Translations under genes and position numbers: made by a program
In this document: in pieces, positions 7,801-30,901 of the stretch
Layout: each line of letters begins with the position of its first letter
Position numbering within the stretch: the first letter of the stretch is position 1
Notes under the pieces: generated by a model
Told to the model about the DNA's origin: nothing
The model's input: the letters and a program-made list of their open reading frames with translations, nothing else
Databases searched by the model: none
Assembly (NCBI GenBank): GCA_041308705.1
Contig: JBFZBA010000017.1
Location: 1 to 33,474, forward strand
Origin: Candidatus Altimarinota bacterium
GTDB lineage: Bacteria > Patescibacteriota > Gracilibacteria > BD1-5 > JAGOOR01
Reading direction: 5' to 3'
DNA: 33,474 nt

Positions 7801-8672
7801 TGGATATGTTTGACCTCGGAACTGATATTACTGGAAGTGGGCTCATACTCGAATCTGGTACACCTATGTCATTTGAAGAAAAAATACGAGAAGAAAGAAA
7901 TGCTATCGGTATGAGCATATCTGGTGATCCACTCGATGGTCTCAAGCGGTACATAGAACGGAAGTCTCTCGGACTAGATAAAGTGAAGGACTTCCTCGCA
8001 ATACTCGAAGAAAGCATTACAGAAGAACAAATAATCGATGATGAGGTGAGCGATGCAGGAGAAGTAATAATAGAGGAAAAGGAGACAGAAAAAGATATAG
8101 AAAATGAACCAGAGGAAGAAAGAAAAAAAGAAAAAAAAGAAAAGCCAATAGTTCAAATAATCGGCTATGTCGATACGGTCAAAAAAATACAAACAAAAAA
8201 AGGAGACAATATGCTCATTGCGACTTGTTCGAGTACTGGGTGGAAATTCACAGTCGTCGTCTTCCCGAAAGTATACGATCAAATAGCTCACCATATCAAC
8301 TTGGGAGAAATCATTCTCGTAAAAGGTCGGCTCAATTGCAAAATAGAGATGCGCGAGATATCTATCGAGGCAGATCAGGTGAAGAGATCCACTATTTCAG
8401 ACCTCAGAACAGCTGCGAGAAATGAAGGAATATTTGGAGATGCAGAAGAGGCAGAATGACAAACTGTGAAGCAATTTCAGAAACTACAAAATACATACCC
8501 CTGCATCATAGAAGATAATATAATAACCCTCAAACTCTCCGAAAAAACACCCAGAGAGACGCTCCTCGAGATAAAGACGCTCCTCGAATGATACGCACCA
8601 GGAGACTACCATGTCTGGCTCGATATAGGCGGCACTATGATAGATACAAAGAAAAAAATAGCAGATAACTAG
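4875..8672 (+). CDS. dnaE: DNA polymerase III alpha subunit (1,265 aa)
   Basis: Starts [17 protein letters not shown] (PHP domain). Four ORF-track pieces (5067, 6438, 7704 and flanks) share one frame and are joined through 9 TGA (5010, 5046, 5862, 6159, 6300, 7467, 7599, 8457, 8589). Motifs: GPGR-G-SAAG (G = TGA 6159-6161), PDIDIDF, and an OB-fold region near the C-terminus. TAG stop at 8670-8672. Confidence 0.92.
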
Positions 8673-11600
8673 GCTCCTGTGGTCTCGAGAGTCGTTATGA
8701 CATCACCACTGAGTATGATTTTCCCGAGTTCGACTCTATCTCGAGAGAGGGTAAATATAACACGATTATTTTCGAGCTTCACAGACCATACAACATTGGT
8801 ATCAAGAGTGCGGATGACTCCACGATTATCGAGAGTGATCACTGGTCTATATGCGGTATCTGTGATATACGCTCATCACTTGAGAGTGTCGCGAAGTGTC
8901 GCAGGCTCGAGACGGAGACCATTACCGATGACAAATATTCCTGGCTTGTTTACTTCTTCGAGTGTCGCAACTTGTCGGTAGATAGTCTCTGGAAAATCGT
9001 ATCTTACACGCAGTCTCTCAGAACTACCCTGACGAATTGAGTAAGAAAATGTCTGCCCAAGAGTGATAATAGGTACCATAGAAAAAGTACTTCCCAGTGT
9101 CGGCACACCAGAATTTCTATCAAAAGTTGTGAGTGTCTCTGTTCAGAAATTAAGAGAAATTTTGGGAGTATTGCGGACAACAGAAGTAGAAAATACATCA
9201 CTATTACTACCGAATCATCGAGCCAGAGTCCAGCTCTGACTATCTATGTAGGATTGTACGCCCATCGGCAGAAGTGGGGAAACAAAGAGTGTTTTACCAG
9301 AGACTTGTCCATTTTTATCGAGAGTACTGATGCCGAGTCTTGGTGGGTCTGTAACGATGCGAGTGGTGTAGTCTCGGACTCTTCATGAGATGGTCACACG
9401 GACAACCATCCCTGTGCTCTCTTGCTGTGTCTCAAATGCAAATCTCGTCGCAGAGAGTTTCCTGTACTGTGAAGATGGGAGACGGAATATCTCAACATTG
9501 GTCAGTGTGTCAGCTGGGAAATACGACTGGAAATCAATCTCTGTAGGACTCGGGAGAGAGAGCTTTATCAGAGGTGGAATATTTGAGAGGATACTACCTT
9601 GTGAGAATTCTGCGTAAGCATCAAAGACAACAGTCCGAGGGAAACGTTTTTCTACAAGGCTACGAGCATCTGTGATAGTACCATAATACCATTCAGATTC
9701 GACAGGGAGGGATAATTTCTTGATACCGACACCTGGTGCGTATTCGGCCAGTGACCAATACTGAGAAGGCCCGATAATTGTCTTCTGACCATCAGGAAAG
9801 AGAAGAGAGATACTTCCGTTCGTATCAGTAGTGAGACGATCATTTGGGAGAATTGGGAGACGAATATCACGGATGCTCAGTGGCCGTTTTTCAACAGTAT
9901 TACTGAAGAGCATGAGCGATCATTTGAGGACAGCAATACTACTATCGCTCGCAAATCTGACTCTCTGACCAGCAGTCATATTGTACGAGGCAGTCTTCCC
10001 TTTTGAGGTCACCTCTAACACGGTTGATTCTGAGGTATAGCCTGATTGCCCTCCACGGATAACAAAGTTTGGAGAGAGATCCTGAATGGCACCATTTTCA
10101 TCGATATATCTTGCTCTGGTGAGAAGTGTCCTGTAGATTTTATTATGCTCGATAAAGACAATTCCATCTATGTCGGCAATGGTAGGAACACTCGAGATAG
10201 GCATGAGTGGATCATTTTTGGTCTGTGGGATAATATCTACTTGATAACGCCCTTTATTCTGCTGGGTCTCAAAGAGAGAACGGAAGAGGCTCAAACGCAT
10301 ATGTTCATTGCCTTGTTTCATATGTACCTGGTATGGGGCACTCGCTGGAGAATTGTTCTGTCGTAAGTATATCTGTCCATCTCGGGGTATGAGTGACATA
10401 TCTGCATTTCTAATATTGAAAAATTGACGGTATATATCATTCATAGTGTATACCTTTGGTGCATCTTTAATAGTGTATACATTTGGAGATTTTGTGTAGT
10501 TTTCTTTTCTATAGATGATACTTCAGAGTGAATAATAGAGATCGAGATCACCGTCACGGTCGTCATCAGTAGTGTGAATTTTTGTCTCAGCATTGACCCC
10601 CCGTGTATAATAGATGAGCTTCTGTGAATTACCCCCCTGAGTCACATAGAGTCACTGAGTCTGCCTGAGTCCTTGCTCTTCCATGGTAGTCTCAAATGTC
10701 GTACGAGCAGAAGGAGCAACAGGAGTATCAGTTGTGATTGATAAAAGGGGAGCACCGGGCTGAAGAGAGTTAATAGTAGAAATGACAGGTGCGAGCGGAT
10801 TGAGAATATTCGAATCAAGCGCAGCAAGATAACTGCTCGAACGATTGTTTTGGGCCAAGTGAGCGCTCCCCACTATTCCCTGAGCAAGGGATGGTATTTG
10901 TTCAAGTGTTTTTGTGTTATTTCACCATGCGACGAGATCCTGGATGACTTTATTATTTTCTGCCCTGTCCATCTGAATAGCATCTTGTATTAAATCAAAT
11001 CTCCTATTCATCTGCGCAATAGCAGGAGCCATCACATCTGTCTGAGATGAATTGGTGTTGAGGATTCGAGCAAACTGTGCTCTCCTCTGTGGTAACATAT
11101 CTATACCCTGAATCACCTCAGATAATTGAGTAAGTGATTGTCTTGGATCCAGATACTCTGGATTTTGTGTCGCTGCTACAAGCTCTCGAAGCATTGATGG
11201 GATTTGAACGAGAGATGTAGTATTGATACTTGGGTCAGCCAAAAGTGCTGTCTGAAGAGTATCTATAGATTTTTGAATACTATCAAAATTCGCATGTGAT
11301 CATCCAATACTCCGCTGTGGATTGAGTTCTATGGTATCCACATCATTTCTAAATCGAGCAGGGCTATCATATCATTGATATGCAATATGTATATCCCAAA
11401 AATCAGGGGGGAGATATCCTTTTCGTTCGGTGGCATGAGCAACGGTAGTTCACGCATTCCACTCAGGTACGATAGGGACTTGATTGTAGAGGCATTTAAA
11501 TTTGGTCGTTGCAGCAAATATATCTTCAGCAAATCCAAGCGCTGGAGCAAGGGATGGCATCTTTGGAGCAGGAGGTAGATCGGGGAGCTGAGGTATATCA

Positions 11601-14600
11601 ATAGATGGTGGCGGGATTTTTGTCGTCAATTGTGGGACTTTTGGGATGCGTGGCATAGGCGGAGCAGAAGTACCTATTGGTGCATCTGGGAGGGATATGG
11701 GCTGGAATGTAAAGTTATACTGTGGAATCTTGGCATTGATAGCAGGATTTATCTCTTGCTTCAGAGCAACATTTGGCCATCGTGGCATTTCAATAACAGG
11801 AATATTTGGTATGATTTCTGGTATGACTATAGACATAGCATGTTGGAGATTCCACCGCTCATTATGATTGACACCACATTCTGTTTCATAATCATTAAAG
11901 ACATCTATCAATCCTTGCCACGAATCAAGCGTCTTGGTATTAGCGACAAATGATTCTGTCCAGTTACTGAAATTTGGACCATTGTCCTTCATCCAATCTC
12001 CCATAAATTTCTGTGTTGATGCGACATTTTGTGAGAGACCATAGAGGTATTTCTCTTTTTCATAATAGTATTCTTGGATCATCTCTGGCATTTTTTTATA
12101 TTTTTCAAGTTCACGGAGATTTTCATATAGTATGGCTTCATTTTCAGGACTTTGAGGAGCATTAAGTGCTTTTTTATACTGAATCATTTTTCCATCAATA
12201 TCTTCAGTTCTTGGGTACGGGAACACGGCATCAATAGTATCCTCTGCAGGATCAACAGTAGGATATTGCGAAATATGTTGAGAAAAAGTCCCTGGTACTG
12301 CGTAAGGTACTTTTGGTATATTCAAATCATCAGAAGAGCCAACTCCTCGATTCCCAGCAACAGCATTGGCAGTCGGTATGATACTACTGAAAAGTCATGA
12401 TGATGGAATATCTGAAATTCAGGATATGCCTTGTGGGAGATTTTCAAATTCGAGTATTGCTCCCCTGTCTGCGATCGAGGAGAGATCAGGGAGTCATATG
12501 TTGAGATCAGGAAATTGAGTTAGACTTGAGATAATCTCATTCATCTGCCTGTCATACCAGTCCATGATAAAGTTTGGAAAAGGTTTAACACTCTTGAGAT
12601 TGATCGACTCAGGGCTAACGGCATTTCACCCCAGGAAATTCATAATCTGTGGGTTGAGAGCTATTTTGAGTATATCATCACCATATTTCGATAGGAATTC
12701 AAGTGCTGAGTCAGATGACGACCCTTCTGCGACAGTAGCATTTTCTGTAATACTCTGGAGAACAGCTGAGATATTTCTATCGTTGGCATTGGCAAAATAA
12801 TTCTCTGTAGTCTGTGAGAGAGCAATCGGGTATGCATCTATCATCTGAGAAGGAGAACATGTACTCGCATTAGAAAAAACAGCTCTCTCTCTCCTCTCTG
12901 GATTTTTATCATCTTCCTCCGATGGAGGTAGACTGTCAGATACATCGGTTTCTGTATCAAGTGGCGCATCTTCACTTCCATCGTTGAAACCCTGAAGTAG
13001 CTGTAAAATTGCATAAATACAATTCCCGTCAAACTGAAGAGGAAATTTTCAAGGTTTATTTTGGATAGCATTATTAGGACCAAAACAGACAAGCTGAGTC
13101 ATAGCACCTGTGAGAGTCGTATCCAAGAATACACGGAATTTCGAGATACCAAGTCCTGGTGTATATTCTCCTGCTTTGAGACCTGTGACCGATCATGCAG
13201 CATTGGTACCATCACTGAGACCACTACCCCCCGTGGCAGCTGGTGAACCTGGGAGTAAGTCACGAAGACCTCCTGCTCAACGACGCTTTGCACCAGGCGG
13301 ATATGAGATAGCAGGATCTCAACATAGGACATTGTTATGACAAGCTTTTCCTGGAATATTTGCTTGTGGAACAGCATATCCCAGAGCAGTAATAGTGTTT
13401 CCTGGCATATTTGGTGACCAGTTAATTGGCTGAGAAAAAGAATTCCCGAAACCAGAAGTAAAGCCTTCAATAATCTGATCTATACCATTTGTAATTCCTG
13501 CAACAACTGAGTCAATCTTTCAGAGGCTTGAAAGTATCTGTGGAATATTATTCTTCATGACCATTTGAAATACTTCCCCGTAGTCAGTGTCATCTTTGTC
13601 TGGTATGCCATCACCATCGCTATCTTGATTCCATTCTGCGAGCCGTCTTTGTGATTTTTCCGCCATCTGAGCTTCACTCAATTGTTCAACTGGGCGAGGG
13701 TTGGCATTACTAGTAGGAGGCGTGCTCGTAGGGTCCGCACTGAGTCGGAGAGCATTTTTCTCAGGGTCATTTATCTCTCGAGTGATGACAGTCTTTTGAT
13801 ATGTACGATCATAGGTATTGTGTGAACGATAGAGTAGGAGTGGCCCACCACATGTTTCATTTGGATTAAATCGTATATCACCGTAACTATCATGATCATA
13901 AAACTCACTTTCTGGTATGGATTCTTTCCCTGAAGCAGTCGTATTAATGCTTCGAATATCAGACTTTGGAAGTGTACTTACAGATGTCGGATCTTGACTA
14001 TCTTCAATATAACCAACATCAAATTTACCAAAAGAAAACGACCTGAGCGTACCAGTGTAGATGAGCGTTATGGTCTCACCAGGAGCGAATGATACATTTC
14101 TCATGTCTGCTATTCCTGAATGATGATACTGACTGTCGATGATAAATTTTCGTGTTTCTTTTCCGGTACCGCGGACAATATCATATTCTGTATCTGAGGG
14201 TGAGAGATAGTCAGCAAATTTCTCAAGCAGAAGTATGTTACTGATTTTTTGTGTTGAATTATTTTTGAGGATTATTTTGACTTCTATTGGAGAACCAGAC
14301 AGTACTTGTCCAGAGGCTTCGAGAGATTTATACTGTTTTTTTACGGAGAGCGAAGCGGGTATGATAAATGGTGCCTTGAGAAGATGAAGCGCATCATAGC
14401 TCTGATCTGGACTCGTGACGACAGATACGATACTATCATTCTCATCTTCAAATGAATCATAACCAAATCGGAGTGAGCTAGCGAGATTAGTAGAATTTCC
14501 ATCGTACATGCGCAAAAGACCATTTGGAAGACCAGAGAGACTATTGGTAGAATTACCGGCAAAGCTGTCTACTACTGCAGTCCCCAAACTTGGTGATGGA

Positions 14601-17600
14601 GCTATGGTCGCGGGCTGAGGAGATGGTACCTGTATCTGCGTAAAGAGGAGATTATTTGCTTGTTCTTGCTTTGTTCGGAGTTCAAATGTAGGTGGTACAG
14701 GCATGGTATTTGGATCAACAAATCCAGGACCATTGTAGCGAATTGCCCCTGTGAAATAAGAAGCCTTTGCTTCATCCGACAAGACGAAATCATAGACATT
14801 ATCCATGAGCTGTACGCGGAAGATACCAGAGCTGTGGCCATAAAAAACAAATAAACTTCCGAGATGATCCATCACAATAATATCATCAATTCTATCATTA
14901 TCCATATCAAAGACTTCGAGTTGTTCTATTTTTCAGAGTATTGGTGTTACATCGTATTGCATTGGTTTTTCCGTCGGACCATTTTTGTCATGTACCACCA
15001 GGTGAATCTCTCCTGAGTTATCAACAAAAACTATATCAGCATATCCGTCACCTATGAAGTCTCACGACAGTATCATTCATTGCTGTGCATCTCTGACAGA
15101 TAGGAGATCTCCTCCATCGAGAAAAGTGCCATCACCACGAGAGAGTCACATTCATATAGTACCATTATCGTGGTAGACTATGAGGTCTTTTTTCTCATCA
15201 CTATTTGCATCACGGAAAGTAAAATCACTCACACGAGCTCATGATATATATATTGGCTCTCCGGGAGTTTTATCAAATCCTGTAGTATTATCTACTCCGT
15301 AGGCTGGGAGATGAATGAGGGGATCTCCGAGATTAATAGTCAAGTAATCTGCATGATTTTCCATCGATTCTCACCACTCCTGTCATGAGGCAAACTGGAG
15401 GAGAGAGGTATTATCATCCGTCCAGCCGAGACCATCTTTCTCGGGATAGGAAGACCATCACTGTGTATGTGTTCACCCTAGATAAGTATTTGATGCGCCT
15501 GACATATATACTACCATACCAGGTACCTCATGAGAGCTAACATTACTCCAGGTGAGCTTTGTAAGAAGTGTTGGGAGGAATGGTTCTACGATGATATCGC
15601 CAGCCGTATCTACTCAAAACTGTTTTGGAACTCGCGGCTTCCATGCGAGTCAGAGAGTACCAATATTTTTACCGTTTGAAGTAACTGAAAATTGGAGGAC
15701 TTGAGTATTTTTTTGTACAAAGGTAAGTGAGAGATTTGGGAGAGAGAATATTTCTGTGAGAGTAAAAAGTTTTTCTGAATTTTGATACACACTTCCGTCT
15801 CGATAATAAATATCCGAACCAGCTGGGGTGAAAGTCATCGTGTCTCGGCTACACACGCCCTCACATGGACTGAAAGAAATATCAGACATAGCTGGGTAGC
15901 GAACACGAGCAATAGCACCGAGGCGTGAGTCAGATACCGAGAGAGTGAGCGCATTATTGATGTATGATTCTATTTGAACCTTGATACCAGTTCCGTATTG
16001 AACAGTACCAGTTGTGAGACCACCTGTCGGCATGACAGTGATAATAGGACTCACTGATGTATCGAGAAGTGTGGTGAGTGCGAGAGTTTTTGTCTGTGGA
16101 GCAAAGAGTGTTGATCATCCAAAATATCATTCAACAGGTGTCTGTCAAAATGGCGCACCGAGTAAAACTTGAGTCAGGTTCTGCCAACGATTTTGAGAGG
16201 CTTCTTCACTCGTGATAACAGGAAGTGCATTTGTCTCAGAGACATTTTCCAGTGCAGGAAGAGGAGATTTTTTACCATCTTTCTGGAGCCAACCGCGGAA
16301 CAATATACGACCAGGATTTCCGACACTGATGATATCCGTTTCATAGATTCCTCTAGATACTTCTCGTGCAGATGTGAGTGGCTGGACGAGCGCATCACGG
16401 TCAGCTGTAGCGACTATCGTGTGCCCATGAAGTGTGGTCAGATTACCATAACTATCATAAACTCGGGTAGTGAGAGTCCCCCGTGCTCCAGCTCGAGCAA
16501 AGAGAATCTCGGGACTGGTAAGAGCTATACGAGCAGGGGTACCTGGTAAAATCTGGAAGCTCTCTCCCACTATTTTTCCGAGACCTGTTTCCTTCATGTA
16601 AAAAGAAATTGTAGCAGGTTTTGTACCAGTCTTTATAGTAGTTGTCGCACGACCTCATCGGAAAATAAGACTCTCCTGAGCGAGTATGGCATCACCACCT
16701 CTTATACCTATTTTGATAGCGGTATCCCAATTATCGACGAGAGTACCGTCAGCTCTCTGAATACTAAAATTGACAGGAATTTCCTGACCCACCTCAATCT
16801 CATCACTCCGAGGAATATCGACCTTGAGCAGTGCATCAGCGAGAACTGGTCGAGAAAAATTAGTAGATATTTTTTGAGCATCTCGAGTCAGTGTGATGTC
16901 AAAAGTAGTGTTGCCTGATTCAGTTGGTGTCAGTGTGAGAGGAGATGTAGCCTTAGCTGAAAAAACTGTATTTGGCTGAGTTGATAATGGTGATATTTTT
17001 ACTCTCGTTGAGCTCTTGATATCCATATTCCAGTCCTTGAGGTCAATGCTATTTCACCAGGTATCCTGGAGTAAAAATGATACCTTTTCTGGAGTATCAC
17101 GGATGAGTAGACTCGAGAGAATTGCTTCCATCTTGACTGGTTTATCTGGCGAAACCATGAAATAAGCCTGAGAGGAATAATCCCCTGCCAGAATGGTGAT
17201 AGTGTATTTCCCAGCTTTCCTCAGAACTGAATCAATAGCAGGACTCCCTAAACGAATACTATTATTTGTCACAGGTACAGATTTATAGAGTCATCGTTCT
17301 TGGCCTGTCACATAGTCCTGAATAGAGACATATACAGTTCCTGGATATATATCCAGACCAGACAAAATCAACTCCAATCCTCTCGTGTCACCAGCGGTAA
17401 TTGTGTGTGAAGTGTCAGTACCTGTAGAACCAATAACTGTCACGCCGAGGACTATCGGGCCAATCAATATAGAGTCTTGTTTTGAAGTAATGAAAATACC
17501 TTTTTCATCATAAATACGGGATGCAAAAGTAATCCGTGCGCGATTATTATTCTGCGAAGTAAATGACCATGAAGCATGTCCGTCCAATAGCGTATCAGAA

Positions 17601-20600
17601 CCAGAAACACTAAAATAACGCTTCTGAATATCTACCCAATCAGTATCTCGAGAGGAATAACTCTTCTTTTCATCGAGGTCATCTATGCGGATGACTTCGA
17701 GACGAATATTAGTAGAATCATCGTCGAGCCTGAAATTTCCTTCATCAAGCGTCGTATCTATACGAACTGTTTCGCGAGGCTTGAGAGTACGAGCCGAGAC
17801 TGAGGTATTGAGTGAGAGTCAGTCTCTCTTATTTTCTACATAATCCTGAACATTATTTTTGTTAGTATCTGACTTGAGAAAACTTTTGAGTTGCTGCAAC
17901 AATCCAGAAATATCACCAAGTCCACCAGTTGAAAAAGGAAATGCGGGAAAATCAGAAGTATCAGCGGTAAGTGTAGTTGATTTTACATCAGTAAAGCTCT
18001 GAAGCCAACAGAGAATTTGACTGAGCCACTCCCACACTATGACACTTGAGAGCAGTTGACAATCAAGTTTTGATGATGAATCGCCACCTGACTGCTTAGC
18101 CTCTTTTTCATCACGAGGTGTGTCACGAAGTACATCTGATTCACCGAGGAGTGTACGGATTTCACCAGGAGAAAGAGAGTACGGAAAATCATCCCCAGAA
18201 TCAGAAGGTGATGAATCAAATACTATATCACTGTGGACAGCTTGTATATCTGTGAACCATTCTGGGAGAGGATTTTTTTTCTCTGGAGCAAATCAAAATA
18301 CAAAATTTCTCGCATCACCCTGACCTCCGAGGTAACTCGTTTCATAGAGATCTTTTTTATCTGGGAGGATGAAATTTTTATTCGCAGTAGTAGGAGCAAG
18401 AGCTCGTTCAAAGACAGAGGTATATTTTGTTTCAGTGTCGAGATATTTCCAGCGAAGTGCCTCGATGAGAGCATTTTTGATGTCAGTATTTGCGAGAAGT
18501 GTGTCTGCAATATTCACAGAATTCATACCAGCATCTGGCACGAGCTGAGACCATTTATGACCATTAGGGAGATTTACCCTCGGTGTGAGTTGAGACTGAG
18601 CTCATGAAAGAGCAGTACGAATTTTCGCAATTATGACATCATCCGTATCGAGCGGATTCACGACGATATCAAATAGATTTGGATAATTCACACGAGACTG
18701 CGTTCCAGTCCGATTGAGATAGAGGAGATATCTCTCTTCGTCTATTGGGAGGTTTGGTGTCGATAATCCCTGGAGCTGTTTTCCAAAAACACTCGTCGTC
18801 GGATCACTGTGTTTGATGAGTGATGGTATTCTCTTATATGTTCATGAGAGTCCGTTCGTTTGACATGCTCCGAGATTTTTTCCATCACGATCGAGGAGAG
18901 TGATGTCACCATTATTCACAGAACATCGTATGAGACTCGAGAGAATATTTTCATTTCTGTCAGGAGTGGGGTCAATATTTATTGGATTTGGCGTCGGTCG
19001 TTGAAGCGGAGTTGCACAAGAATATCTGTTTCCATTTGTTTCAGTAGGCCAATTGTATTTCTTATTTGCGATTCAAACATGCTGGTACGGTCGGAGTATG
19101 AGATCAGTGTTGAGACAATCAAGTGGTGAGTTCACTGCAGTTATTTTCTTTCCTGCAGCAGGATCAAGAATAGGCAAGACGAAATCATCAGAGCGAGAAG
19201 AATTGAGTACCATTCCACTATCTCAGTAGGTCGAATTGATTGGACTATTTCCGCCCCAGTATGACAATGTCGGATTTGGGCATACTATCCCTGCATCTGT
19301 GTCGCGAGCAATAATTTTTCCATCAGATTCACCTGCGAGCATATTATATCCATGGTTCATCTGAACCGTCGTATTGACTCATCCAAATGTCGAACCACGA
19401 ATGAGGCTACAGTCACTCGCAGTCTTAATAGTATTAGCCTTTGTACCATAGAAATAATTATCATAGACGAAATTATATGTACGAGTCACTCGTCTTCTCC
19501 CTTCTGTTTCTGTGATAGTTTTTTGAAAAGGACGACTCACCAAAATAGGGATATCGAGAGAGAGATTCCCTTCAACATAAGTATCTATCAATTTTTCGAG
19601 AACATCGTTACCTTCTTTGATAACCTGAGCAGAGAGGGCGTCTTTGGTCGTGATAAGCTCAGGAATAGTGTCTACCCTGACACTGGATGAGTCATCATAA
19701 TATCGTCCAGTATTGTGAACCCACTTTGTCACATCTTCGAGATATTTTTTATTGATAACTTTGATAAATGGCGTGATGAGCCCATCAGCAAAAACCTTGG
19801 TCGTGATATCCGAAGCTTGATCCAAAAATGAAGCTCCAGGATTTGGTTCAGGTTTCCAATTTTGAAAACTCGGTATTTTGAGATTTCCCTCAGATTTCAT
19901 GAGAGACAGAAATCCTGCATAGAGATATTGAGCAAACTCACGGGAAAATCGATTATAGACCGTGTGCTCCTGATTAGGGATAAAGAACTGCTCGTAGACA
20001 GAGAGAAGTCATTTACTGGCTGCACGAGATTCATTGATACTATCCATGTAGAAAATCTGTGGATCTGTGCCGACATTTTGGTAACGTCATTTTTTGTCAT
20101 CATATTCGTAGACGCGAGCAAAAAAATCACGAATCTTTGTTACATCAGTATCGATATCTCCTGTATTTGGACTGATGACAGAATGCCAGATATCAGGACG
20201 AGGATTTTCTTTTTTCTGTGAGAGAAATTCATATCGTGAAGTATCCCAATTCCAGAAAAAATGAGGCTCATCAAAATCTGTGTACGGAAAGAGTGAGAGG
20301 AAGTCTGTGGTATTTTTGTGGACAACAGGAATCGGGAGATGTCCGATAAGTATAGTTCCCACTAGTTTCTGAGTTTTATTGCCGTGCTCTGGAAGTCCAG
20401 AGAAATACAGTCGTTCATTGGCAGAAGCTATAACATACGGATGAGTATCGCGAGGAAATGTCAGGATAACTGCGCGTGTGTGTGGAAGTCGAGCCTGTAT
20501 ACGGCGGGCATAGGCATCGATATCAGAGGACATCTTGCGAAACAAGTCTTCCTCCACAAGGACAGATACTATATCTTCATGATCTCATGTCTCCGATGCA

Positions 20601-20695
20601 GAAACATCAGAAATGGTAAATGGAATACGAAAAATAACCTCAAAAGAAAGGAGGCCTATCAGAAACCATGCAATGATCTTTTGGATAGGAATCAC
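8669..20695 (-). CDS. Giant membrane-anchored surface protein of about 4,008 aa (Ig-like, FG-GAP, CARDB-like, TSP3-like Ca-binding and Pro-rich segments)
   Basis: All 18 minus-strand ORF-track pieces from 20087..20557 down to 8876..9106 share one frame (low coordinate mod 3 = 2). My codon-by-codon scan of every gap found only TGA (about 49 in total) and no in-frame TAA or TAG between the TAA at 20729-20731 and the TAG at 8669-8671. Many gap lines were cross-checked against plus-strand ORF-track translations. The only canonical start is GTG at 20693-20695. It gives IPIQKIIAWFLIGLLSFEVIF, a predicted N-terminal transmembrane or signal anchor. Confidence 0.8.
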
Positions 20696-20778
20696 GAAGG
20701 TATAAATATTTCCATTATTGTACTCATTTTATTTGTAGAATAAAAGGATTATCATACCTTCTCGCTTGCAAAAATGCT

Positions 20779-21927
20779 CTAATCTACATAAATATATCCT
20801 ATGATAGCAGGATTACTAAAATTCTCCCTCCGAGTTGTCACTTCGTTGAGTGCTCGGTAGTTCATATCCTTGATGATCATATGGTCTTCATTGACTGCCA
20901 TGACTATACCGACATGCCCATACGCAGGCGGAAATCCTGCACCATGATAGACTATGATAGCTCCTGGTCTCGGATCATTTCCCGTTGGTTTTCATTGCTT
21001 TTTCGCATTTCTGATCCAATCTTTCGCATTACCACGCCAAGTGACATCTTTATATTTTGCAACAAAACAAGTACAGTTTCCCCAGACAAAATTACGACAT
21101 CATTTACTGACTTTGAGACCGAGAGAATAATCTCCATAAGTGAGATTTAACTGATCTCGCACAACTGGCTTCGGAGCTGGTTTGAGTGCTGGCGCTGCTG
21201 GTTTTGGAGCATTATTTTGTGCAGGAGCTGGCTTGGCAGCTGGAGTAGTCTTTGCAACCTGTGGAGCTGGTTTTTTGGTTGGGTCTTTTGTGGGATTTGG
21301 GAGGAGAATTTGTTTACCGACACTGAGTCTCGTATTACGGCTCATATCGTTTGCGATGAGGATAGTGTTGATATCTTTGATGCCATATTTCTGTGCGATA
21401 GTACTCAGAGTATCTCCCTTCTGTATAGCATACTGGACACCATTGATACGAGGAATTGTGATTTTCTGGTTGATTGAGAGAATATCGGTATTGAGATTAT
21501 TCATCGTGCGCAGTGTCGCAATCGGTATTCCATATTTCTGAGCAATAGTACTGATAGTATCACCTCTCACGACTGTATGTGTGACATAGAGTGATCGCTT
21601 TGGGTCAACTGTAGGCTCTGGTAGCTGTTCGGCTTCTAATGCGAGAACAGGTGCAGGCTCTGGCTCTATGAGTGTCGTCTCGGGTGGATTCTGGACAAGG
21701 TCCTCTATGAAGTCAGAAGTGCTCTCCCCTGTCTCCCAATCGTAGGAAGCGAGAATAGTGGAACGGTCATATTCGCCTCGAACAACCACACCTGTATAGC
21801 TCTGCATGTAGGAACCAAATACTGGGTAGATAGGGACGATGAGGATAAGTAAAAACGCGAGATTACTGAGAGTTTTCTGACGAAACTGTTTTTGGCGACG
21901 CAGGCGTGTAGAAAACTTATTTCGCAT
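20779..21927 (-). CDS. Membrane-anchored LysM-LysM-CHAP (NlpC/P60-like) peptidoglycan hydrolase (382 aa)
   Basis: ATG at 21925-21927. Transmembrane anchor LAFLLILIVPIYPVFG. Two LysM motifs (HTVVRGDTISTIAQKYGI..., YAIQKGDTLSTIAQKYGI...) and a Pro/Ala/Lys linker. The CHAP domain is read through TGA 21100 and 20992: GNCTCFV...WRGNAKDW...YGHVGIV. TAG stop at 20779. Confidence 0.85.
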
Positions 21928-21930
21928 GGA

Positions 21931-22929
21931 TTATTTTTTTTCGTTATAGATGAATCCTACTATATTTTTATTTTTTATCTTCTCGACACGGGTTGTCACT
22001 TTCCAGAGTCCAGCATAATTCATATCTTTAACGACCATTGTACCAGCCTTTGCATTGACACTCATGACGATTCCGACATGTCCGTAAGTGAGATTATAGC
22101 CTGGACCATACCAGACAACTATAGCCCCCGGTCTCGCTACTTGACCAGTTTTAAATCCTGCGGCATTAGCATTTTTATACCAATTTCTCGCGTTTCATCG
22201 CCATTTCACTGGCCAATATTGAGCTACAAAATAGGTACAATGACCAGGAACAAATCCTGCCCCACCTTTATTGATGAGCTTGAGAGTAAAGGTTCCAGTA
22301 TTAGGCTCACCTTGACCACCAGAAACACTACCAGCATTATCGATAGCAATTGATGGTCTCTGTGCATCAGGGAGGAAGAGTGTAATACCAGTCGGAAGTA
22401 CATCTCAGAGGAGGTTCGCTGTACGGATTTTCTCGCTTGTGGTCTTGAATTTGATAGCTATGGCATCGAGTGTATCTCCTCTCTTGGTCGTATACATGAT
22501 ACCATCACCTGGTGGGATGATGAGTTTCTGACCGACACGGAGGGTATCAGTGGAGAGATTGTTTGCCCAGCGAACAGTGTTCGCAGACATACCAAATTGT
22601 TCGGCTATTTCTCAAATTGTATCACCACTCTGAACGAGATATTCCTCAACTGTAGACCGCTGATTTCCCTCGGGAGAAGTCTGTGGATCGATAAAATCAG
22701 CATCAGTAACATCTGTATATTCATTGATAATAGATGTCTCGTTGATATTTACACCAAGCGCACCTCTGTTAGAACCATCATAGATAAAAGCACCAAATAC
22801 GGGATAAATGGGTAATAAAACGACGAGTGAGAGAATGAGAAGAGAATTAGAAGTCCTCACCCTCTTCATCCGTGCTCGGCGAAGAGCACGACGGTCGCGA
22901 AGATACTTGGATATAATTTTTGGAAGCAA
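21931..22929 (-). CDS. Membrane-anchored LysM-LysM-CHAP peptidoglycan hydrolase, paralogue of 20779..21927
   Basis: Pieces 22612..22929 and 22405..22590 plus the downstream stretch are joined through TGA 22612, 22405 and 22195. Motifs: LLILSLVVLLPIYPVFG anchor; YLVQSGDTI-G-EIAEQFGM and YTTKRGDTLDAIAIKF (LysM); GHCTYFV...WR-G-NARNW...YGHVGIV (CHAP). TAA at 21931. The start is uncertain: TTG 22929, or ATG 22869. Confidence 0.8.
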
Positions 22930-22949
22930 GCAGGGAGATTAAGGACAAA

Positions 22950-23258
22950 CTACGCGCTGATCGAAGTAACTTCGAGCTTTGTCTGTGCAGCGCGGAAACC
23001 AGCTGTACGATGGTAGTGTTTCTTTGATTTCATTTTGAAGACGCGAACCTTGTCACCTCGTGTGTGTTCTGTCACTTTGCATTCTACCTTTGCACCATCG
23101 AGAAAAGGAGCACCGACCTTGGTACCTGTAGCCTCATCTGCGACGAGAAGTGGTGTAAATGTGTGTGATTCGAGGGCTTCATCGAGTCTATCTACTGTGA
23201 TGATATCACCTTGTTTGACGATGTATTGTTTGCCTCCTGTTTCGATAACTGCAATCAT
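22950..23258 (-). CDS. rplU: 50S ribosomal protein L21
   Basis: Reads MIAVIETGGKQYIVKQGD...KVRVFKMKSKKHYHRTAGFRAAQTKLEV. This is an intact ORF-track entry. Confidence 0.9.
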   Translation of the reverse strand: MIAVIETGGKQYIVKQGDIITVDRLDEALESHTFTPLLVADEATGTKVGAPFLDGAKVECKVTEHTRGDKVRVFKMKSKKHYHRTAGFRAAQTKLEVTSISA

Positions 23259-23402
23259 AATATTGGATTAGATGGCTGTATTGTATATATTTTTTTAATC
23301 TGGCAAGTTTTTATACTCTAAAAGTGCGCAAAACATGATTTGTATGCGATTTTTTGATTTTTTATTTTTGATTTTTTATTTGCCAGCTATACTTCCCTGC
23401 AT

Positions 23403-24038: not shown

Positions 24039-24084
24039 ATTAGGAGAAAATTGACAATTATAATAATATAATTATTATAATTAT

Positions 24085-27193: not shown

Positions 27194-27314
27194 ACAAGTT
27201 TACTAAATTGATAAGTTTCTTAAGTTTATTATGTTCAGGGACATATGAAATGCAATGAATTATTCCCAACTTTGTAAACTTAACAAGCCCAGTAAGCCTA
27301 GTGAGCATCTAAAT
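27194..27314 (-). repeat. Conserved intergenic cassette, copy 1 (121 nt), between the Cys-ladder gene A stop and the transketolase start
   Basis: Gapless alignment to 30781-30901 (offset 3587) with 9 mismatches in 121 nt. There are only 2 mismatches in the 91 nt at 27224-27314. Confidence 0.85.
27228..27255 (-). promoter_or_regulatory. Predicted sigma70-type promoter inside cassette copy 1 (-35 TTGCAT, 16-nt spacer, -10 CATAAT)
   Basis: The minus strand reads TTGCAT-ttcatatgtccctgaa-CATAAT, about 35 nt upstream of the transketolase ATG. Confidence 0.4.
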
Positions 27315-29042
27315 CTAGTAGACTAATTTCCTATAACACTCCTCACACACCACCTTCTCAGGTCTCTCCGGAGCATAGGTAGTAATTATAGGTTTCTGAC
27401 ACTCTGAGCAAGTCCTCTCATACAGTGTTCGAGGATTTCTCAGATCCATTCTTTCCTTATGTCTCTGGTCTGGATGCTTCGTGGGGATAGGAAGAGAATG
27501 TTCTATGTAGAAAGCCAGTTCTTGTCGGATGATTTTAAAGGGTTTGCCTGTTACTTCACACTGTACTATTCCTGAGAGAAGAATATCAATATTCTTCTGT
27601 GCTGTGTCGTATCCTACTTTCTTCTCATCATACTGGGATATGGGGAGTGGTGTGAGAGAAGACCCTTCAAAGGTCTTTACTGGTTCATCATACCATCTCC
27701 ATCCACGAGACTTCACTTCTTCTTCAGTAAGTGGGAAGTATTCCTGTGCCAGACTCTCATTATATCACCATGGTGCATCAGATATTGAGAAGAATTCGCC
27801 CCATGTTCACTCGTGTGTCATGGCATCAATGATGTTGCCTACCATGGTTTCATATTCGTGGACTCAGTAGGGTTTATTGAGAATGCAATGGTGTTCATGG
27901 TTGTGCAATCAGACACATCAGAAACAATTCTGTATACTATTGCAGTCCTGAGAATAGATCACATTGGAAACATCCTTCCATACATCTGCACAAAAAAGAA
28001 GATTCTGAGAATTCTGACCGACAATTGAACATTCGTAGCACCACTCAACATTCCAGCCAAAATTATCGACATCCATGAGATTTTTACCTGTTTTTATATT
28101 GCTACAATACCGCAATTTCTCACAATCAGAGCACTCGAAACATTGGTAACAATCAGATGCATTGATGATATGATTTCCTATTGAATTCTCTACTTTCGTT
28201 CATTCAAAATAACGCTTTGGCTGAGTAGAGATCCATGTTCTAATTTTGGGAACCAATAATCCTATATCAAGAGTCTGCAGTTGATTGAAATAGTCTTCTT
28301 TGGTATACTGTTTATTGGCAATACAGTATGATTGATTCGTGAGATTGGCACAAGAAAAACAATCACTACAACCCGTACACGCATGACAAACGAGACAATC
28401 GCTACACCGTGTTAACCCCTGGGAATAGAAACATCTTTCACAGTTATTGCAGTCAATACACTCATAACAATCACGACATTCGTATATCGAGAGACAATCA
28501 ACACACATCTCGGATCGGACAAACATTGCCGTGTAATAGAGTTTTTCAGAGTTTCATCCATTGAAGGAGAGATAACTATCTTTGAGATTATTAGCATTAT
28601 TACAATAATCTGAATTTTCTAAAAGAGAACAACTGCGCGCAAAATGAGGAACTCTCAGTGCGAGGGAGTCGATTTGTTCAAGAATTGGAATGTCTGGATT
28701 ATATTGCTGACCATATTCGAGAGGATTCCAGCTATCACTATAATAGATATCATTCTCATATACGGAGTACGCTTTGTCTTCTGAGTGCATACTAAATATT
28801 GTTTCATCCGAGTAACTACTTTTTCGGAGGTACATTTTTCGCTGATTTCTGTAGCTTATTCTTCGTCTCATCCTCTCCTCCGGACACAATGTCGGGCTCG
28901 GAATACTATATTTCTTCCCTCCAAATATTGGTGAAACTTTATCCAGAAATTCCAAATCTTTGTCCGTCACAAGGAACTCCTGCCCACTCATGCGACACTT
29001 TTTTGTTTCAACGATTTTTTCACCAGGAAGAAGGATGGGCAT
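27315..29042 (-). CDS. Cysteine-ladder repeat protein, paralogue A (575 aa)
   Basis: ORF-track pieces 28554..29042, 28200..28526, 27918..28115 and 27315..27716 share one frame and are joined through TGA 28554, 28200, 27918, 27909, 27864, 27807 and 27765. The register is confirmed by plus-strand ORFs 27529..27870 and 27813..28028. ATG at 29040-29042; TAG at 27315. Confidence 0.8.
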
Positions 29043-30780: not shown

Positions 30781-30901
30781 ACAAGTTGATTAAGTTGGTA
30801 AGTTTTTGAGGTTTATTATGTTCAGGGACATATGAAATGCAATGAATTATTCCCAACTTGGTAAACTTAACAAACCCAGTAAGCCTAGTGAGCATCTAAA
30901 T
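30781..30901 (-). repeat. Conserved intergenic cassette, copy 2 (121 nt), between the paralogue C stop and the paralogue B start
   Basis: See copy 1. The start codons (27191 and 30778) and the upstream stop codons (27315 and 30902) sit at identical offsets. Confidence 0.85.
30815..30842 (-). promoter_or_regulatory. Predicted sigma70-type promoter inside cassette copy 2 (-35 TTGCAT, 16-nt spacer, -10 CATAAT)
   Basis: The sequence is identical to 27228-27255. Confidence 0.4.

What the first reader, a model, noticed from the sequence alone, without database searches (positions are those of the whole stretch)
20779..22929. Tandem LysM-LysM-CHAP hydrolase paralogues directly upstream of the giant protein: a candidate envelope-attack or attachment module
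Two genes have the same architecture: an N-terminal anchor with the shared PIYPVFG motif, two LysM repeats, and a CHAP domain with Cys and His in GNCTCFV/GHCTYFV and YGHVGIV. The two genes are 3 nt apart. On the same strand, rplU lies 20 nt upstream of the first gene and the 12-kb gene lies 83 nt downstream of the second. Membrane-tethered, peptidoglycan-binding amidase/endopeptidases next to a giant adhesin suggest a functional unit. It could serve to breach or remodel a partner cell wall, or the cell's own wall at the contact site. rpmA (L27), which normally follows rplU, is absent from its usual position, consistent with the accessory genes occupying that slot.
Basis: inference. Interest (0 to 1): 0.7.

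Follow-up and report, generated by a model that had tools for sequence, protein, structure and literature searches.

The report
Duplicated wall hydrolase genes behind rplU
Two adjacent genes in a Gracilibacteria genome (UGA = glycine) encode peptidoglycan-cutting LysM-CHAP enzymes that are a clade-specific duplicate of a core gene sitting right after ribosomal gene rplU in every relative examined, so they are more likely the cell's own wall-splitting enzymes than a dedicated attack module tied to the neighbouring giant protein.

Summary
The order on the minus strand is rplU, 20 nt, gene A (332 aa), 3 nt, gene B (382 aa), 83 nt, then a 4008-aa ORF. A and B each carry two LysM domains and a CHAP domain with intact catalytic residues, and they are 35% identical.

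In 83 of 83 testable loci, rplU lies directly upstream of a LysM-CHAP gene. So this is a core Gracilibacteria gene occupying the usual rpmA slot, not an accessory insertion.

The tandem duplicate and the adjacent giant gene occur together in only one clade: 20 of 20 loci there, against 0 of 64 single-copy loci. That amounts to one evolutionary event. Distant giant homologues sit next to unrelated genes. The giant gene also has its own conserved −10-like box.

The paralogues diverged in complementary ways. A changed residues around the active site. B changed LysM residues.

My best reading is septum-splitting or wall-remodelling autolysins of the Sle1/LytN type, expressed together with rplU. 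A role against a host's wall, or in helping the giant protein cross the wall, is not excluded.

In passing I found an undescribed gene-specific element, a hairpin plus TTATTCCTAA, between rplU and the single-copy gene across the class.

The parts
22950..23258 (-). rplU (ribosomal protein L21), 102 aa. First gene of the unit. TACAAT box at 23280-23285, 21 nt before its ATG.
   Evidence: ORF and translation. phmmer finds orthologues in every locus. Pfam Ribosomal_L21p on the orthologues. Box position.
22930..22949 (-). 20-nt rplU-to-A spacer (TTTGTCCTTAATCTCCCTGC). No hairpin and no terminator-like site.
   Evidence: The PWM scan finds no significant match here to the single-copy motif.
21931..22929 (-). 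Gene A: LysM-LysM-CHAP hydrolase, 332 aa, TTG start. Basic n-region, PIYP at 22801-22812, LysM1 at 22513-22641, LysM2 at 22360-22491, CHAP at 21934-22248. Catalytic Cys lies in GHCT (22234-22245), His in YGHVG (22072-22086), Asp and Asn in KDMNY (22015-22029). This is the derived paralogue around the active site (N to H next to the Cys; K293W, R358A, E362K, Y378F in B numbering).
20779..21927 (-). Gene B: LysM-LysM-CHAP hydrolase, 382 aa, ATG start 3 nt after A's stop. PIYP at 21823-21834, LysM1 at 21451-21579, LysM2 at 21298-21432, Pro/Lys-rich linker, CHAP at 20782-21093. Cys in GNCT (21070-21081), His in YGHVG (20908-20922), Asp and Asn in KDMNY (20857-20871). Keeps the ancestral CHAP residues; LysM positions are altered (W141T, P160R, A212P).
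   Evidence: AF2 model of the 85%-identical P0003 has pLDDT 82 and a CHAP fold.
20696..20778 (-). 83-nt B-to-giant spacer with clade-conserved TTTTTGCAAG and CTTTTATT, and a -10-like TACAAT at 20717-20722, 21 nt before the giant's GTG.
   Evidence: TAnAAT lies 16-27 nt upstream of the GTG in 19 of 19 pair-clade loci.
8669..20695 (-). Giant ORF, 4008 aa, GTG start, N-terminal hydrophobic signal-like segment, one FG-GAP/VCBS repeat (aa 1879-1941; nt 14873-15061). Member of a Gracilibacteria-wide family of ~3100-6300-aa surface proteins. Its end overlaps dnaE tail-to-tail by 4 nt.
   Evidence: Orthologues are directly downstream of B in 20 of 20 pair-clade loci.

Best explanation
**What the genes are.** A and B encode exported peptidoglycan hydrolases. 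Each has a Sec-type N-terminal signal, probably cleaved after P-x-Y-P-[SVAT]-[FL]-[GSA]. Two LysM modules then hold the enzyme on the glycan strands of peptidoglycan. A CHAP cysteine peptidase/amidase (Cys-His-Asp-Asn) cuts the stem peptide or cross-link.

**Where they come from.** They are a clade-specific tandem duplicate of a single-copy core gene. In all examined Gracilibacteria that gene sits immediately downstream of rplU, usually as tRNA-Gln, rplU, LysM-CHAP.

**Most likely job (inferred).** I infer they act on the cell's own wall, doing septum splitting, daughter-cell separation and wall remodelling in a monoderm, peptidoglycan-containing cell. This is what LysM-CHAP and LysM-NlpC/P60 autolysins (Sle1, LytN, LytE/F) do in Firmicutes.

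**Expression (inferred).** In the window's clade the ancestral hairpin after rplU is gone. rplU-A-B are packed at 20 nt and 3 nt and are most likely co-transcribed, which would tie hydrolase supply to ribosome synthesis and growth.

**After the duplication.** The copies diverged in complementary ways. A altered the surroundings of its catalytic Cys. B altered its LysM residues. Both evolve at the same moderate rate.

**The giant gene.** It is a lineage-specific neighbour with its own promoter-like box. Any functional coupling to it is secondary and unproven.

**Shown versus inferred.** Shown: the domains, the catalytic residues, the fold, the synteny statistics and the divergence pattern. Inferred: export and cleavage, the substrate (own wall), co-transcription and growth coupling.
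For: - **Domains, residues and fold.** Pfam hits are above the gathering scores. C285, H338, D354 and N356 are invariant in 77 and in 103 sequences. In the AF2 model (pLDDT 82), the CHAP domain superposes on S. aureus amidase 5t1q (2.2 A over 110 columns), PcsB 4cgk (3.0 A over 117) and phage phi812 CHAP (2.6 A over 117). The overall best match is the T. thermophilus 2xLysM-NlpC/P60 endopeptidase 4xcm, E = 1.6e-10.
- **Core-gene status.** rplU is directly upstream on the same strand in 83 of 83 testable loci. These include 80 GTDB species representatives, and 64 loci are single-copy. tRNA-Gln(UUG) precedes rplU in about 20 of 26 single-copy loci tested.
- **Gene tree.** A and B form two sister clades with mirrored topology, which indicates one old duplication with both copies retained.
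- **Rates.** Identity to the window runs L21 > A ~ B > giant, with no accelerated paralogue.
- **Complementary divergence**.
- **Signal peptide.** After PxYP, the -3 position is S/V/A/T in 100 of 103 proteins and the -1 position is G/S/A in 103 of 103. The uncharged core before PxYP is short, median 10 residues.
- **Operon.** No terminator-like site lies on the coding strand between rplU and the giant gene.
- **Literature.** Gracilibacteria have complete peptidoglycan synthesis and no outer membrane (PMC6851277, PMC11452946). [quoted passage not shown]
- **Downstream neighbours.** Undecaprenyl-PP synthase and polyprenyl synthase follow the single-copy gene in about 9-12 of 57 loci.
- **Phage origin.** No relatives were found in viral contigs.
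Against: - No experiment or expression data exist for any member. The substrate, own wall or host wall, is not determined by sequence.
- Gracilibacteria are host-dependent, and cultivated relatives are predators. Secreted peptidoglycan hydrolases of Vampirococcus were proposed to attack the host wall (PMC8080830). A universally conserved hydrolase could equally be a universal attack enzyme.
- The duplication and the giant gene co-occur perfectly (20/20 against 0/64), and the trio has stayed together down to 49% identity of B.
- Paralogue A has replaced residues that are 100% conserved elsewhere, next to the nucleophile. This could mean a new substrate.
- In most single-copy genomes a terminator-like hairpin separates rplU from the hydrolase gene. 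One sub-lineage has a TATAAT box there instead. So co-transcription with rplU is not general.
- I could not inventory the other hydrolases of a complete genome.
Confidence: 0.55

Rival explanations
1. Attack or attachment module. The giant FG-GAP/VCBS surface protein holds the partner cell, and one or both LysM-CHAP enzymes locally digest the partner's peptidoglycan at the contact site. In the refined version, B keeps the housekeeping job and the derived paralogue A is the weapon.
For: - The order A-B-giant is conserved in 20 of 20 loci of the clade, and the duplication co-occurs perfectly with the giant gene.
- A has changed residues that are otherwise invariant around the catalytic Cys: N284H, K293W, R358A, E362K.
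- No terminator-like site lies between B and the giant gene.
- Relatives are predators with giant surface proteins, and their secreted hydrolases have been proposed to hit the host wall (PMC8080830).
Against: - The co-occurrence is a single phylogenetic event, and flanking synteny (adk, greA, DUF212, tkt) is conserved too.
- 64 single-copy genomes keep the hydrolase without an adjacent giant gene, and three distant giant homologues have unrelated neighbours.
- The giant gene has its own conserved -10-like box.
- A and B evolve at the same rate, more slowly than the giant protein, with no arms-race signature.
- The giant protein has no recognisable wall-binding or lytic domain.
Confidence: 0.2
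2. Assembly helpers for the giant protein. The extra hydrolase copy opens or remodels the cell's own peptidoglycan locally, so that a 4008-aa surface protein can be threaded through and anchored. This would be analogous to the specialised wall hydrolases encoded next to secretion systems, pili and flagella.
For: - Adjacency and co-occurrence of the extra copy with the giant gene.
- Tight packing on one strand without terminators.
- Both paralogues are under similar purifying selection, as expected for enzymes acting on a constant, self substrate.
Against: - Other Gracilibacteria encode giant homologues of 3100-6300 aa without an adjacent hydrolase, so no dedicated helper is generally needed.
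- There is no evidence of physical interaction.
- The same single-event caveat applies.
Confidence: 0.12
3. Not functional wall hydrolases of the cell: either a prophage or mobile-element lysin remnant, or catalytically dead LysM adhesins.
For: CHAP domains are common in phage lysins, and the structural neighbours include LysK and phi812 CHAP.
Against: - The catalytic Cys, His, Asp and Asn are invariant in 103 proteins.
- The chromosomal position next to rplU is fixed in 83 of 83 loci.
- No relatives occur in 2.9 million viral contigs.
- There are no phage genes in the window.
Confidence: 0.03

Closest known systems
Staphylococcus aureus Sle1/Aaa (LysM repeats + C-terminal CHAP; septum-splitting amidase)
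   Same: Same order of modules: signal peptide, N-terminal LysM repeats, C-terminal CHAP. Similar size (334 aa). A monoderm host with peptidoglycan. LysM-dependent targeting to the cross wall and a role in daughter-cell separation (PMC9616470) are the model for how A and B most likely work. The CHAP fold matches an S. aureus amidase structure at 2.2 A.
   Different: Two LysM repeats rather than three. Only domain-level similarity and no orthology. No NCBIfam equivalog comes near its cutoff. The signal peptide is unusually conserved (PxYP, an R-x-x-R n-region). The gene is locked to rplU. Activity is untested.
Staphylococcus aureus LytN (YSIRK/GS signal peptide + LysM + CHAP)
   Same: An autolysin whose conserved signal-peptide motif contributes to septal delivery (PMC9616470). 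The strongly conserved n-region and PxYP of this family could be an analogue. LysM sequence match to PDB 11ci.
   Different: There is no YSIRK/GS motif here. The conserved residues are different (N6, A9, R10, R13, R16, P32, Y34, P35). Septal targeting is pure inference.
Streptococcus pneumoniae PcsB (coiled coil + CHAP, FtsEX-controlled divisome hydrolase)
   Same: It is the best NCBIfam and PDB sequence relative of the CHAP domain, with a structural match at 3.0 A over 117 columns. It is an essential cell-division hydrolase of a monoderm.
   Different: A and B have no coiled-coil domain. The NCBIfam scores are 43-46 bits against a cutoff of 450. They use LysM targeting instead of FtsX docking.
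Thermus thermophilus 2xLysM-NlpC/P60 D,L-endopeptidase (PDB 4xcm/4uz2) and Bacillus subtilis LytE/LytF/CwlS
   Same: 4xcm is the best whole-model Foldseek hit (E = 1.6e-10), and LytE is the best LysM sequence match. All share the logic of tandem LysM modules feeding a papain-like cysteine peptidase that cuts stem peptides.
   Different: Their catalytic domain belongs to the NlpC/P60 branch, not CHAP. They have no linkage to rplU.
Canonical rplU-rpmA(-obg) ribosomal operon
   Same: rplU is the first gene of a tightly packed unit.
   Different: rpmA is not in the window. In relatives it was seen only 4-5 kb upstream, in 3 loci. The slot after rplU is taken by a wall hydrolase in all 83 testable loci. 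I found no description of this in the searched literature.
Predatory wall hydrolases (Bdellovibrio DD-endopeptidases; proposed secreted hydrolases of Vampirococcus lugosii)
   Different: The Bdellovibrio enzymes have a different fold (PBP4-type serine DD-endopeptidases). Here there is no loss of a regulatory domain, no accelerated evolution and no experimental link.

Membership tests
CHAP domain (Pfam PF05257; papain-like cysteine amidase/peptidase) | Profile match above the curated gathering score | tested here: met
   A scores 54.6 bits and B 57.5 bits against a cutoff of 26.
CHAP domain (Pfam PF05257; papain-like cysteine amidase/peptidase) | Catalytic Cys and His plus polar third and fourth residues in register (Cys...His-x16-Asp-x-Asn; compare LysK C54/H117/E134/N136, recalled from my own knowledge) | tested here: met
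   C285, H338, D354 and N356 (B numbering) are invariant in 77 database proteins and in 103 code-25 translations, including all A and B copies.
CHAP domain (Pfam PF05257; papain-like cysteine amidase/peptidase) | CHAP three-dimensional fold | tested here: met
   AF2 model of P0003 (85% identical to B): the CHAP region has pLDDT above 90. Foldseek hits are 5t1q at 2.2 A over 110 columns, 9eum at 2.6 A over 117 and 4cgk at 3.0 A over 117. Paralogue A was not modelled.
CHAP domain (Pfam PF05257; papain-like cysteine amidase/peptidase) | Hydrolysis of peptidoglycan, and which bond is cut (amidase or endopeptidase) | not testable with these tools
   Needs purified protein and sacculi or muropeptide analysis.
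LysM peptidoglycan-binding module (PF01476) | Two profile matches above the gathering score, N-terminal to the catalytic domain | tested here: met
   A scores 72.3 bits (aa 97-139 and ~147-190). B scores 78.3 bits (aa 117-159 and 166-210). The cutoff is 20.9. The baab fold is modelled with pLDDT of 88 or more in all but the last 10-residue block, where it is 83.
Sle1/LytN-type septal autolysin of monoderm bacteria | Cleavable Sec signal peptide, i.e. an exported enzyme | tested here: inconclusive
   The -3/-1 rule is met in 100-103 of 103 proteins, and the hydrophobic core is short. No dedicated predictor was available. AF2 draws a long N-terminal helix, so an uncleaved anchor is not excluded.
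Sle1/LytN-type septal autolysin of monoderm bacteria | Orthology or a curated family assignment | tested here: not met
   No NCBIfam equivalog approaches its cutoff. The best hits are DipM (54 bits against 900) and PcsB (46 bits against 450). The resemblance is in architecture only.
Sle1/LytN-type septal autolysin of monoderm bacteria | Acts on the producer's own septal wall, with a separation defect on loss | not testable with these tools
   Inferred only, from core-gene status and synteny and from the literature on the envelope (PMC6851277).
   The consensus scan finds no minus-strand terminator-like site between 20696 and 22949. The gaps are 20, 3 and 83 nt.
   TACAAT at 20717-20722 lies 21 nt before the GTG, the same geometry as rplU. 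Only 25 TACAAT occur in 66,948 positions. TAnAAT lies 16-27 nt upstream in 19 of 19 clade loci. This is sequence evidence only, not a mapped transcription start.
   Conserved in 20 of 20 loci of one clade, absent in 64 of 64 single-copy loci, and absent around 3 distant giant homologues. It is a single evolutionary event.
Canonical rplU-rpmA operon | rpmA (L27) immediately downstream of rplU | tested here: not met
   No L27 hit in the window or next to rplU in any of 84 sequences. L27 was seen 4-5 kb upstream in L027, L031 and L048 only.
Giant FG-GAP/VCBS surface protein ('adhesin') | Recognisable adhesion-type repeats and an export signal | tested here: inconclusive
   There is one FG-GAP_3 repeat (30.2 bits against a cutoff of 26.9) in 4008 aa and nothing else. 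The N-terminus is hydrophobic. Homologues are named VCBS-repeat proteins, and some carry SLH domains. Adhesion itself is untested.

The most novel reading that the evidence does not exclude
In this clade the duplication created a division of labour. Paralogue B keeps the ancestral, rplU-coupled job of splitting the cell's own septum. Paralogue A has a remodelled pocket around the catalytic cysteine but ancestral LysM modules, and it was recruited together with the newly adjacent 4008-aa FG-GAP/VCBS surface protein to breach the wall of the host or prey cell at the contact site. Under this reading, rplU-A-B-giant is a growth-coupled 'hold and cut' module of an episymbiotic or predatory CPR bacterium.
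Probability: 0.15. Interest if true: 0.7.

Novelty: new member of a known kind. Interest (0 to 1): 0.4.

Why it matters
How ultra-small, host-dependent CPR bacteria divide, and how they open a host's envelope, are both open questions. No Gracilibacteria enzyme for either step has been characterised.

This analysis names one concrete, class-wide candidate. It is a LysM-CHAP hydrolase that is fixed behind rplU in every genome examined. It also identifies a clade with two complementarily diverged copies next to a giant surface protein. That gives a natural experiment for separating self-directed from host-directed wall cleavage.

The analysis also tempers the attractive 'attack module' reading. 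The strongest signal is housekeeping-like conservation, and gene adjacency to a giant ORF in a single clade is weak evidence of function.

The gene-specific hairpin-plus-motif element between rplU and the hydrolase gene matches no Rfam family. It is a possible regulatory link between ribosome production and wall hydrolysis.

Tried and rejected
1. **Table-11 reading.** Rejected, because the ORFs fragment.
2. **Code 4 (UGA = Trp).** Rejected in favour of code 25.
3. **ATG at 22869 as the start of A.** I first favoured this start (80-nt gap, matching database gene calls). I withdrew it after the codon-position and conservation test.
4. **The motif as a general RBS or promoter.** Rejected. 44 of its 46 occurrences are at this one site, and rplU upstream regions show no Shine-Dalgarno or similar motif.
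5. **The motif as a -10 box of a leaderless mRNA.** Rejected. The sixth position is not conserved as T, and one sub-lineage has a canonical TATAAT more than 100 nt upstream.
6. **The pair clade retaining the motif upstream of A or of the giant gene.** By eye it looked similar, but an unbiased PWM scan does not support it except in L018 and L019.
7. **Known RNA family in the spacers.** None.
8. **Phage origin.** No relatives in viral contigs.
9. **Tat signal.** The RR is not at the boundary of the n- and h-regions and is not conserved (read from the alignment).
10. **Structure prediction with the window's own code-25 translation.** I used the 85%-identical P0003 instead.
11. **Conserved downstream neighbour of the single-copy gene.** Only patchy: UppS and polyprenyl synthase in about 9-12 of 57 loci.
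12. **Literature.** I found no description of LysM-CHAP enzymes or of the rplU linkage in Gracilibacteria in the held library.
Full report
**1. The observation**

Read with the standard bacterial code, the region is a mosaic of short ORFs. All are on the minus strand:

| Gene | Coordinates | Length |
|---|---|---|
| rplU | 22950..23258 | 102 aa |
| A | 21931..22929 | 332 aa |
| B | 20779..21927 | 382 aa |
| giant ORF | 8669..20695 | 4008 aa, 49 in-frame UGA |

UGA means glycine here, not tryptophan. In 103 orthologous LysM-CHAP genes, 272 in-frame UGA codons fall in alignment columns with a majority residue. Of these, 243 align with Gly and 7 with Trp. Proteins that a source translated with code 4 show W at otherwise invariant G positions.

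Pfam finds two LysM domains and one CHAP domain in each protein, well above the gathering scores. A and B are 35% identical over their whole length, E = 6e-59. The quoted motifs and the 20-, 3- and 83-nt gaps are correct.

The 20-nt gap depends on a TTG start for A. Public gene calls use an ATG 60 nt further in, and I first followed them. The extension is nevertheless coding:
- It is conserved as L[FL]PK[IL][IL]SKYLR[DE]RRALRRAR in 19 loci.
- It varies mostly at third codon positions (0.105/0.05/0.208 for positions 1/2/3).
- It supplies the conserved arginines of the family's N-terminal region.

No L27 gene is present anywhere in the window.

**2. The proteins**

An alignment of 75-77 database homologues, and of 103 code-25 translations from fetched loci, shows these residues as invariant: Cys285, His338, Asp354 and Asn356 (B numbering), and the P-x-Y-P motif.

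An AlphaFold2 model of P0003, which is 85% identical to B, has mean pLDDT 82 and more than 90 across the CHAP domain. Foldseek results:
- The CHAP domain falls on S. aureus amidase 5t1q (2.2 A over 110 columns), phage phi812 CHAP (2.6 A over 117) and PcsB (3.0 A over 117).
- The whole model falls on the T. thermophilus 2xLysM-NlpC/P60 endopeptidase 4xcm (E = 1.6e-10).

No curated NCBIfam equivalog comes close to its cutoff. The family is an uncurated one with a familiar architecture.

The N-terminus has these parts:
- A strongly basic, sequence-conserved stretch (N6, A9, R10, R13 and R16 at 95% or more in single-copy proteins).
- About 10 uncharged residues.
- P-x-Y-P, followed by [SVAT]-[FL]-[GSA] in 100-103 of 103 proteins.

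That last pattern is the signal-peptidase I -3/-1 rule. I had no dedicated predictor, and an uncleaved anchor remains possible.

**3. The neighbourhood across genomes**

Homologues are abundant, and those that carry a name are almost all from Gracilibacteria. I collected three metagenomic loci by exact-protein look-up and 80 loci from species-representative genomes. I called ORFs with code 25 and searched them with the window's proteins.

- **rplU linkage.** rplU lies immediately upstream on the same strand in every locus where this can be tested: 83 of 83. L018 is cut off before rplU.
- **tRNA-Gln.** In most single-copy loci a tRNA-Gln(UUG) gene precedes rplU.
- **The pair and the giant gene.** Only 20 loci, including the window, have the tandem pair. 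Their B orthologues are 49-92% identical to the window's B. All 20 have an orthologue of the giant gene directly downstream. Three of these needed a correction for masked N runs.
- **Single-copy loci.** The other 64 loci have one copy and no ORF of 1500 aa or more next to it.
- **The giant family.** Proteins of about 3100-6300 aa, named 'VCBS repeat-containing' and some with S-layer-homology domains, are found across Gracilibacteria. Three distant members sit among unrelated genes: FtsH, glycosyltransferase and ankyrin; NTP-transferase; pyrH and obg.

So the old, universal linkage is rplU to LysM-CHAP. The linkage to a giant gene is a property of one clade and arose once, together with the duplication. 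Flanking genes (adk, DUF212, greA, tkt) are syntenic in that clade too. Conserved adjacency there is therefore weak evidence for function.

**4. The duplication**

In a distance tree, A and B form two sister clades with mirrored internal branching. This indicates one duplication at the base of the clade, with both copies kept in every descendant.

Both copies are equally distant from the single-copy proteins (35-36%). Both evolve at the same rate, slower than the giant protein and faster than L21.

Of the 75 columns that are 90% or more conserved in single-copy proteins, A keeps 56 and B keeps 61. The losses are complementary:
- **A** replaced CHAP residues that are 100% conserved elsewhere: N284H (next to the nucleophile), K293W, R358A, E362K, Y378F and Y267F. 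It kept the ancestral LysM residues.
- **B** kept those CHAP residues but changed LysM positions: W141T, A142M, P160R, G211N and A212P.

Neither copy looks like a decaying gene or a fast-evolving one.

**5. Transcription signals**

In the window there is no terminator-like hairpin on the coding strand between rplU and the giant gene. rplU-A-B are too close for internal promoters of the usual kind.

The giant gene is different. TACAAT lies exactly 21 nt before its GTG, and TACAAT lies exactly 21 nt before the rplU ATG. There are only 25 TACAAT in 66,948 positions of the window. A TAnAAT box lies 16-27 nt upstream of the GTG in 19 of 19 clade loci.

I therefore infer one unit, rplU-A-B, plus a giant gene with its own promoter that may also receive read-through. 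This needs RNA data.

**6. An unexpected element**

In single-copy genomes, the 45-95-nt spacer between rplU and the hydrolase gene has a fixed grammar: a hairpin of variable sequence, a U-run, then the nearly invariant TTAT[TC]CCTAA, 8-10 nt before the start codon.

- **Hairpin strength.** It is -8 kcal/mol or stronger in 39 of 47 loci (median -16.1, median z -3.7 against shuffles).
- **Covariation.** In one alignable sub-lineage, 5 of 17 predicted pairs show compensatory changes.
- **Specificity.** The 10-mer occurs 46 times in 963 kb of single-copy loci counted on both strands. 44 of these are at this site. It is therefore not a general ribosome-binding or promoter signal. These genomes show no Shine-Dalgarno motif even before rplU.
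- **Rfam.** Nothing matches.
- **Variation.** One sub-lineage has a canonical TATAAT right after rplU, a longer leader and the motif variant TTTCTAAAA before the start.
- **The pair clade.** A PWM scan shows the element is not retained in front of A. Only the two deepest members, L018 and L019, have a good match, and there it lies between B and the giant gene.

I read the element as a terminator or attenuator joined to a gene-specific translation-initiation or operator signal. Its function is unknown.

**7. How it most likely works**

*Shown:* exported-looking LysM-LysM-CHAP enzymes with intact catalytic residues; class-wide single-copy conservation in a fixed position behind rplU; a clade-specific duplication with complementary divergence.

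*From the literature:*
- Gracilibacteria make a complete peptidoglycan and lack an outer membrane (PMC6851277, PMC11452946).
- In monoderm bacteria, LysM-CHAP and LysM-NlpC/P60 autolysins such as Sle1 and LytN are directed by LysM to the cross wall and split daughter cells (PMC9616470).

*Inferred:* A and B are the cell's own septum-splitting or wall-remodelling hydrolases. In this clade they are co-transcribed with rplU, so that their supply follows growth. Confidence is about 0.55.

*Rivals:*
It is favoured by the lifestyle of relatives (PMC8080830), by A's remodelled pocket and by the perfect co-occurrence with the giant gene. It is weakened by the single-event phylogeny, the independent promoter box, the equal and moderate evolutionary rates, and the many genomes that have the enzyme without an adjacent giant gene.
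- A helper role in passing the giant protein through the cell's own wall (about 0.12).
- A phage remnant or dead enzyme (about 0.03).

**8. Novelty and verdict**

The proteins are new members of a well-known kind, LysM-targeted CHAP autolysins.

What is new is the context. A wall hydrolase replaces rpmA behind rplU throughout a CPR class. It comes with a gene-specific hairpin-plus-motif element and an unusually conserved signal peptide. One clade has a complementarily diverged pair next to a giant surface protein. I found none of this described in the searched literature, but absence from that library is not proof.

The 'functional unit with the giant adhesin' is a reasonable hypothesis for one clade, not a demonstrated system. 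Interest is moderate.

Noticed in passing
Single-copy loci, rplU-to-LysM-CHAP spacer, e.g. L029 9876-9952, L023 ~9937-10003, L053 ~9935-10003: A class-wide, gene-specific non-coding element. It consists of a variable hairpin (median -16 kcal/mol), a U-run and the invariant TTAT[TC]CCTAA, 8-10 nt before the start codon. 44 of the 46 occurrences of the 10-mer in 963 kb are at this site. There is no Rfam match. The flanks TTTTA-N4-TAAAA form an imperfect palindrome.
   Followed up: partly
L018 ~1821-1836 and L019 11213-11228 (B-to-giant spacer, +64 after B's stop): In the two deepest-branching pair-clade genomes, a good match to that motif (PWM 10.2 and 15.8 out of 24.7), preceded by a short hairpin, lies between gene B and the giant gene instead of after rplU. 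It is undetectable in the other 18 pair-clade loci.
   Followed up: partly
Single-copy loci, ~100-400 nt upstream of rplU (e.g. L029 9394-9468, L047 9404-9478): tRNA-Gln(UUG) directly precedes rplU on the same strand in about 20 of 26 single-copy loci tested. It is absent in the pair clade (none in L001, L002, L012, L019 or the window).
   Followed up: partly
L083 9194-11038 (+) and 11091-12935 (-): The whole tRNA-Gln-rplU-LysM-CHAP block is present twice as a tail-to-tail inverted repeat with nearly identical copies. This is either a real inverted duplication or an assembly artefact.
   Followed up: no
window 27315-29042, 29050-30780, 30902-32647 (all -): Three tandem paralogues of 575-581 aa, very rich in Cys (CxxC-type repeats), with conserved N- and C-termini. 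One of the three was scanned and has no Pfam match. Orthologues are syntenic in L001. About 60 nt downstream of the first and third copies (27194-27253 and 30781-30840) are nearly identical.
   Followed up: partly
window 23280-23285 and 20717-20722 (-); 24051-24078 (+): TACAAT lies exactly 21 nt before the start codons of both rplU and the giant gene. A near-consensus TTGACA-16-TATTAT ends 6 nt before the ATG at 24085, suggesting a leaderless or very short-leader mRNA. No Shine-Dalgarno-like sequence precedes rplU in any of 84 sequences.
   Followed up: partly
window 8669-8672: The giant ORF (-) and dnaE (4875-8672, +) converge and overlap by 4 nt, leaving no room for a terminator between them.
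   Followed up: no
L086 8001-22235: A distant giant homologue (4256 aa) is flanked by pyrH and obg. obg is the gene that usually follows rplU-rpmA in other bacteria (from my own knowledge), so pieces of the canonical rplU-rpmA-obg neighbourhood seem to be scattered around giant genes in this class.
   Followed up: no
L027 5417-5689, L031 4740-5012, L048 5657-5929: rpmA (L27) homologues lie 4-5 kb upstream of rplU on the same strand in these three single-copy loci. None was found within 10 kb in the other loci or anywhere in the window.
   Followed up: no
Database proteins P0011, P0012, P0018, P0117 and others: Public gene calls for this family are often wrong because of the genetic code. There are table-11 fragments (P0011 is the first 275 aa of gene B) and code-4 translations with W at conserved G positions. 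Calls for paralogue A start 20 codons too late.
   Followed up: yes
LysM-CHAP family, residues 1-62 (B numbering); window 21742-21927 and 22744-22929: The N-terminal region is conserved far more than a normal signal peptide. N6, A9, R10, R13 and R16 are at 95% or more in single-copy proteins. P32, Y34 and P35 are at 100%. A short strand (D54, I58, Y62; pLDDT ~81-85 in the model) precedes a disordered linker. It may be a targeting or autoregulatory segment.
   Followed up: partly
Single-copy loci, 0.5-2 kb downstream of the LysM-CHAP gene (e.g. L003 12100-14574, L031, L063): Undecaprenyl-pyrophosphate synthase and polyprenyl synthase genes follow the hydrolase gene in about 9-12 of 57 loci, and an RRM RNA-binding protein gene in about 6. 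Otherwise the downstream side is variable.
   Followed up: partly
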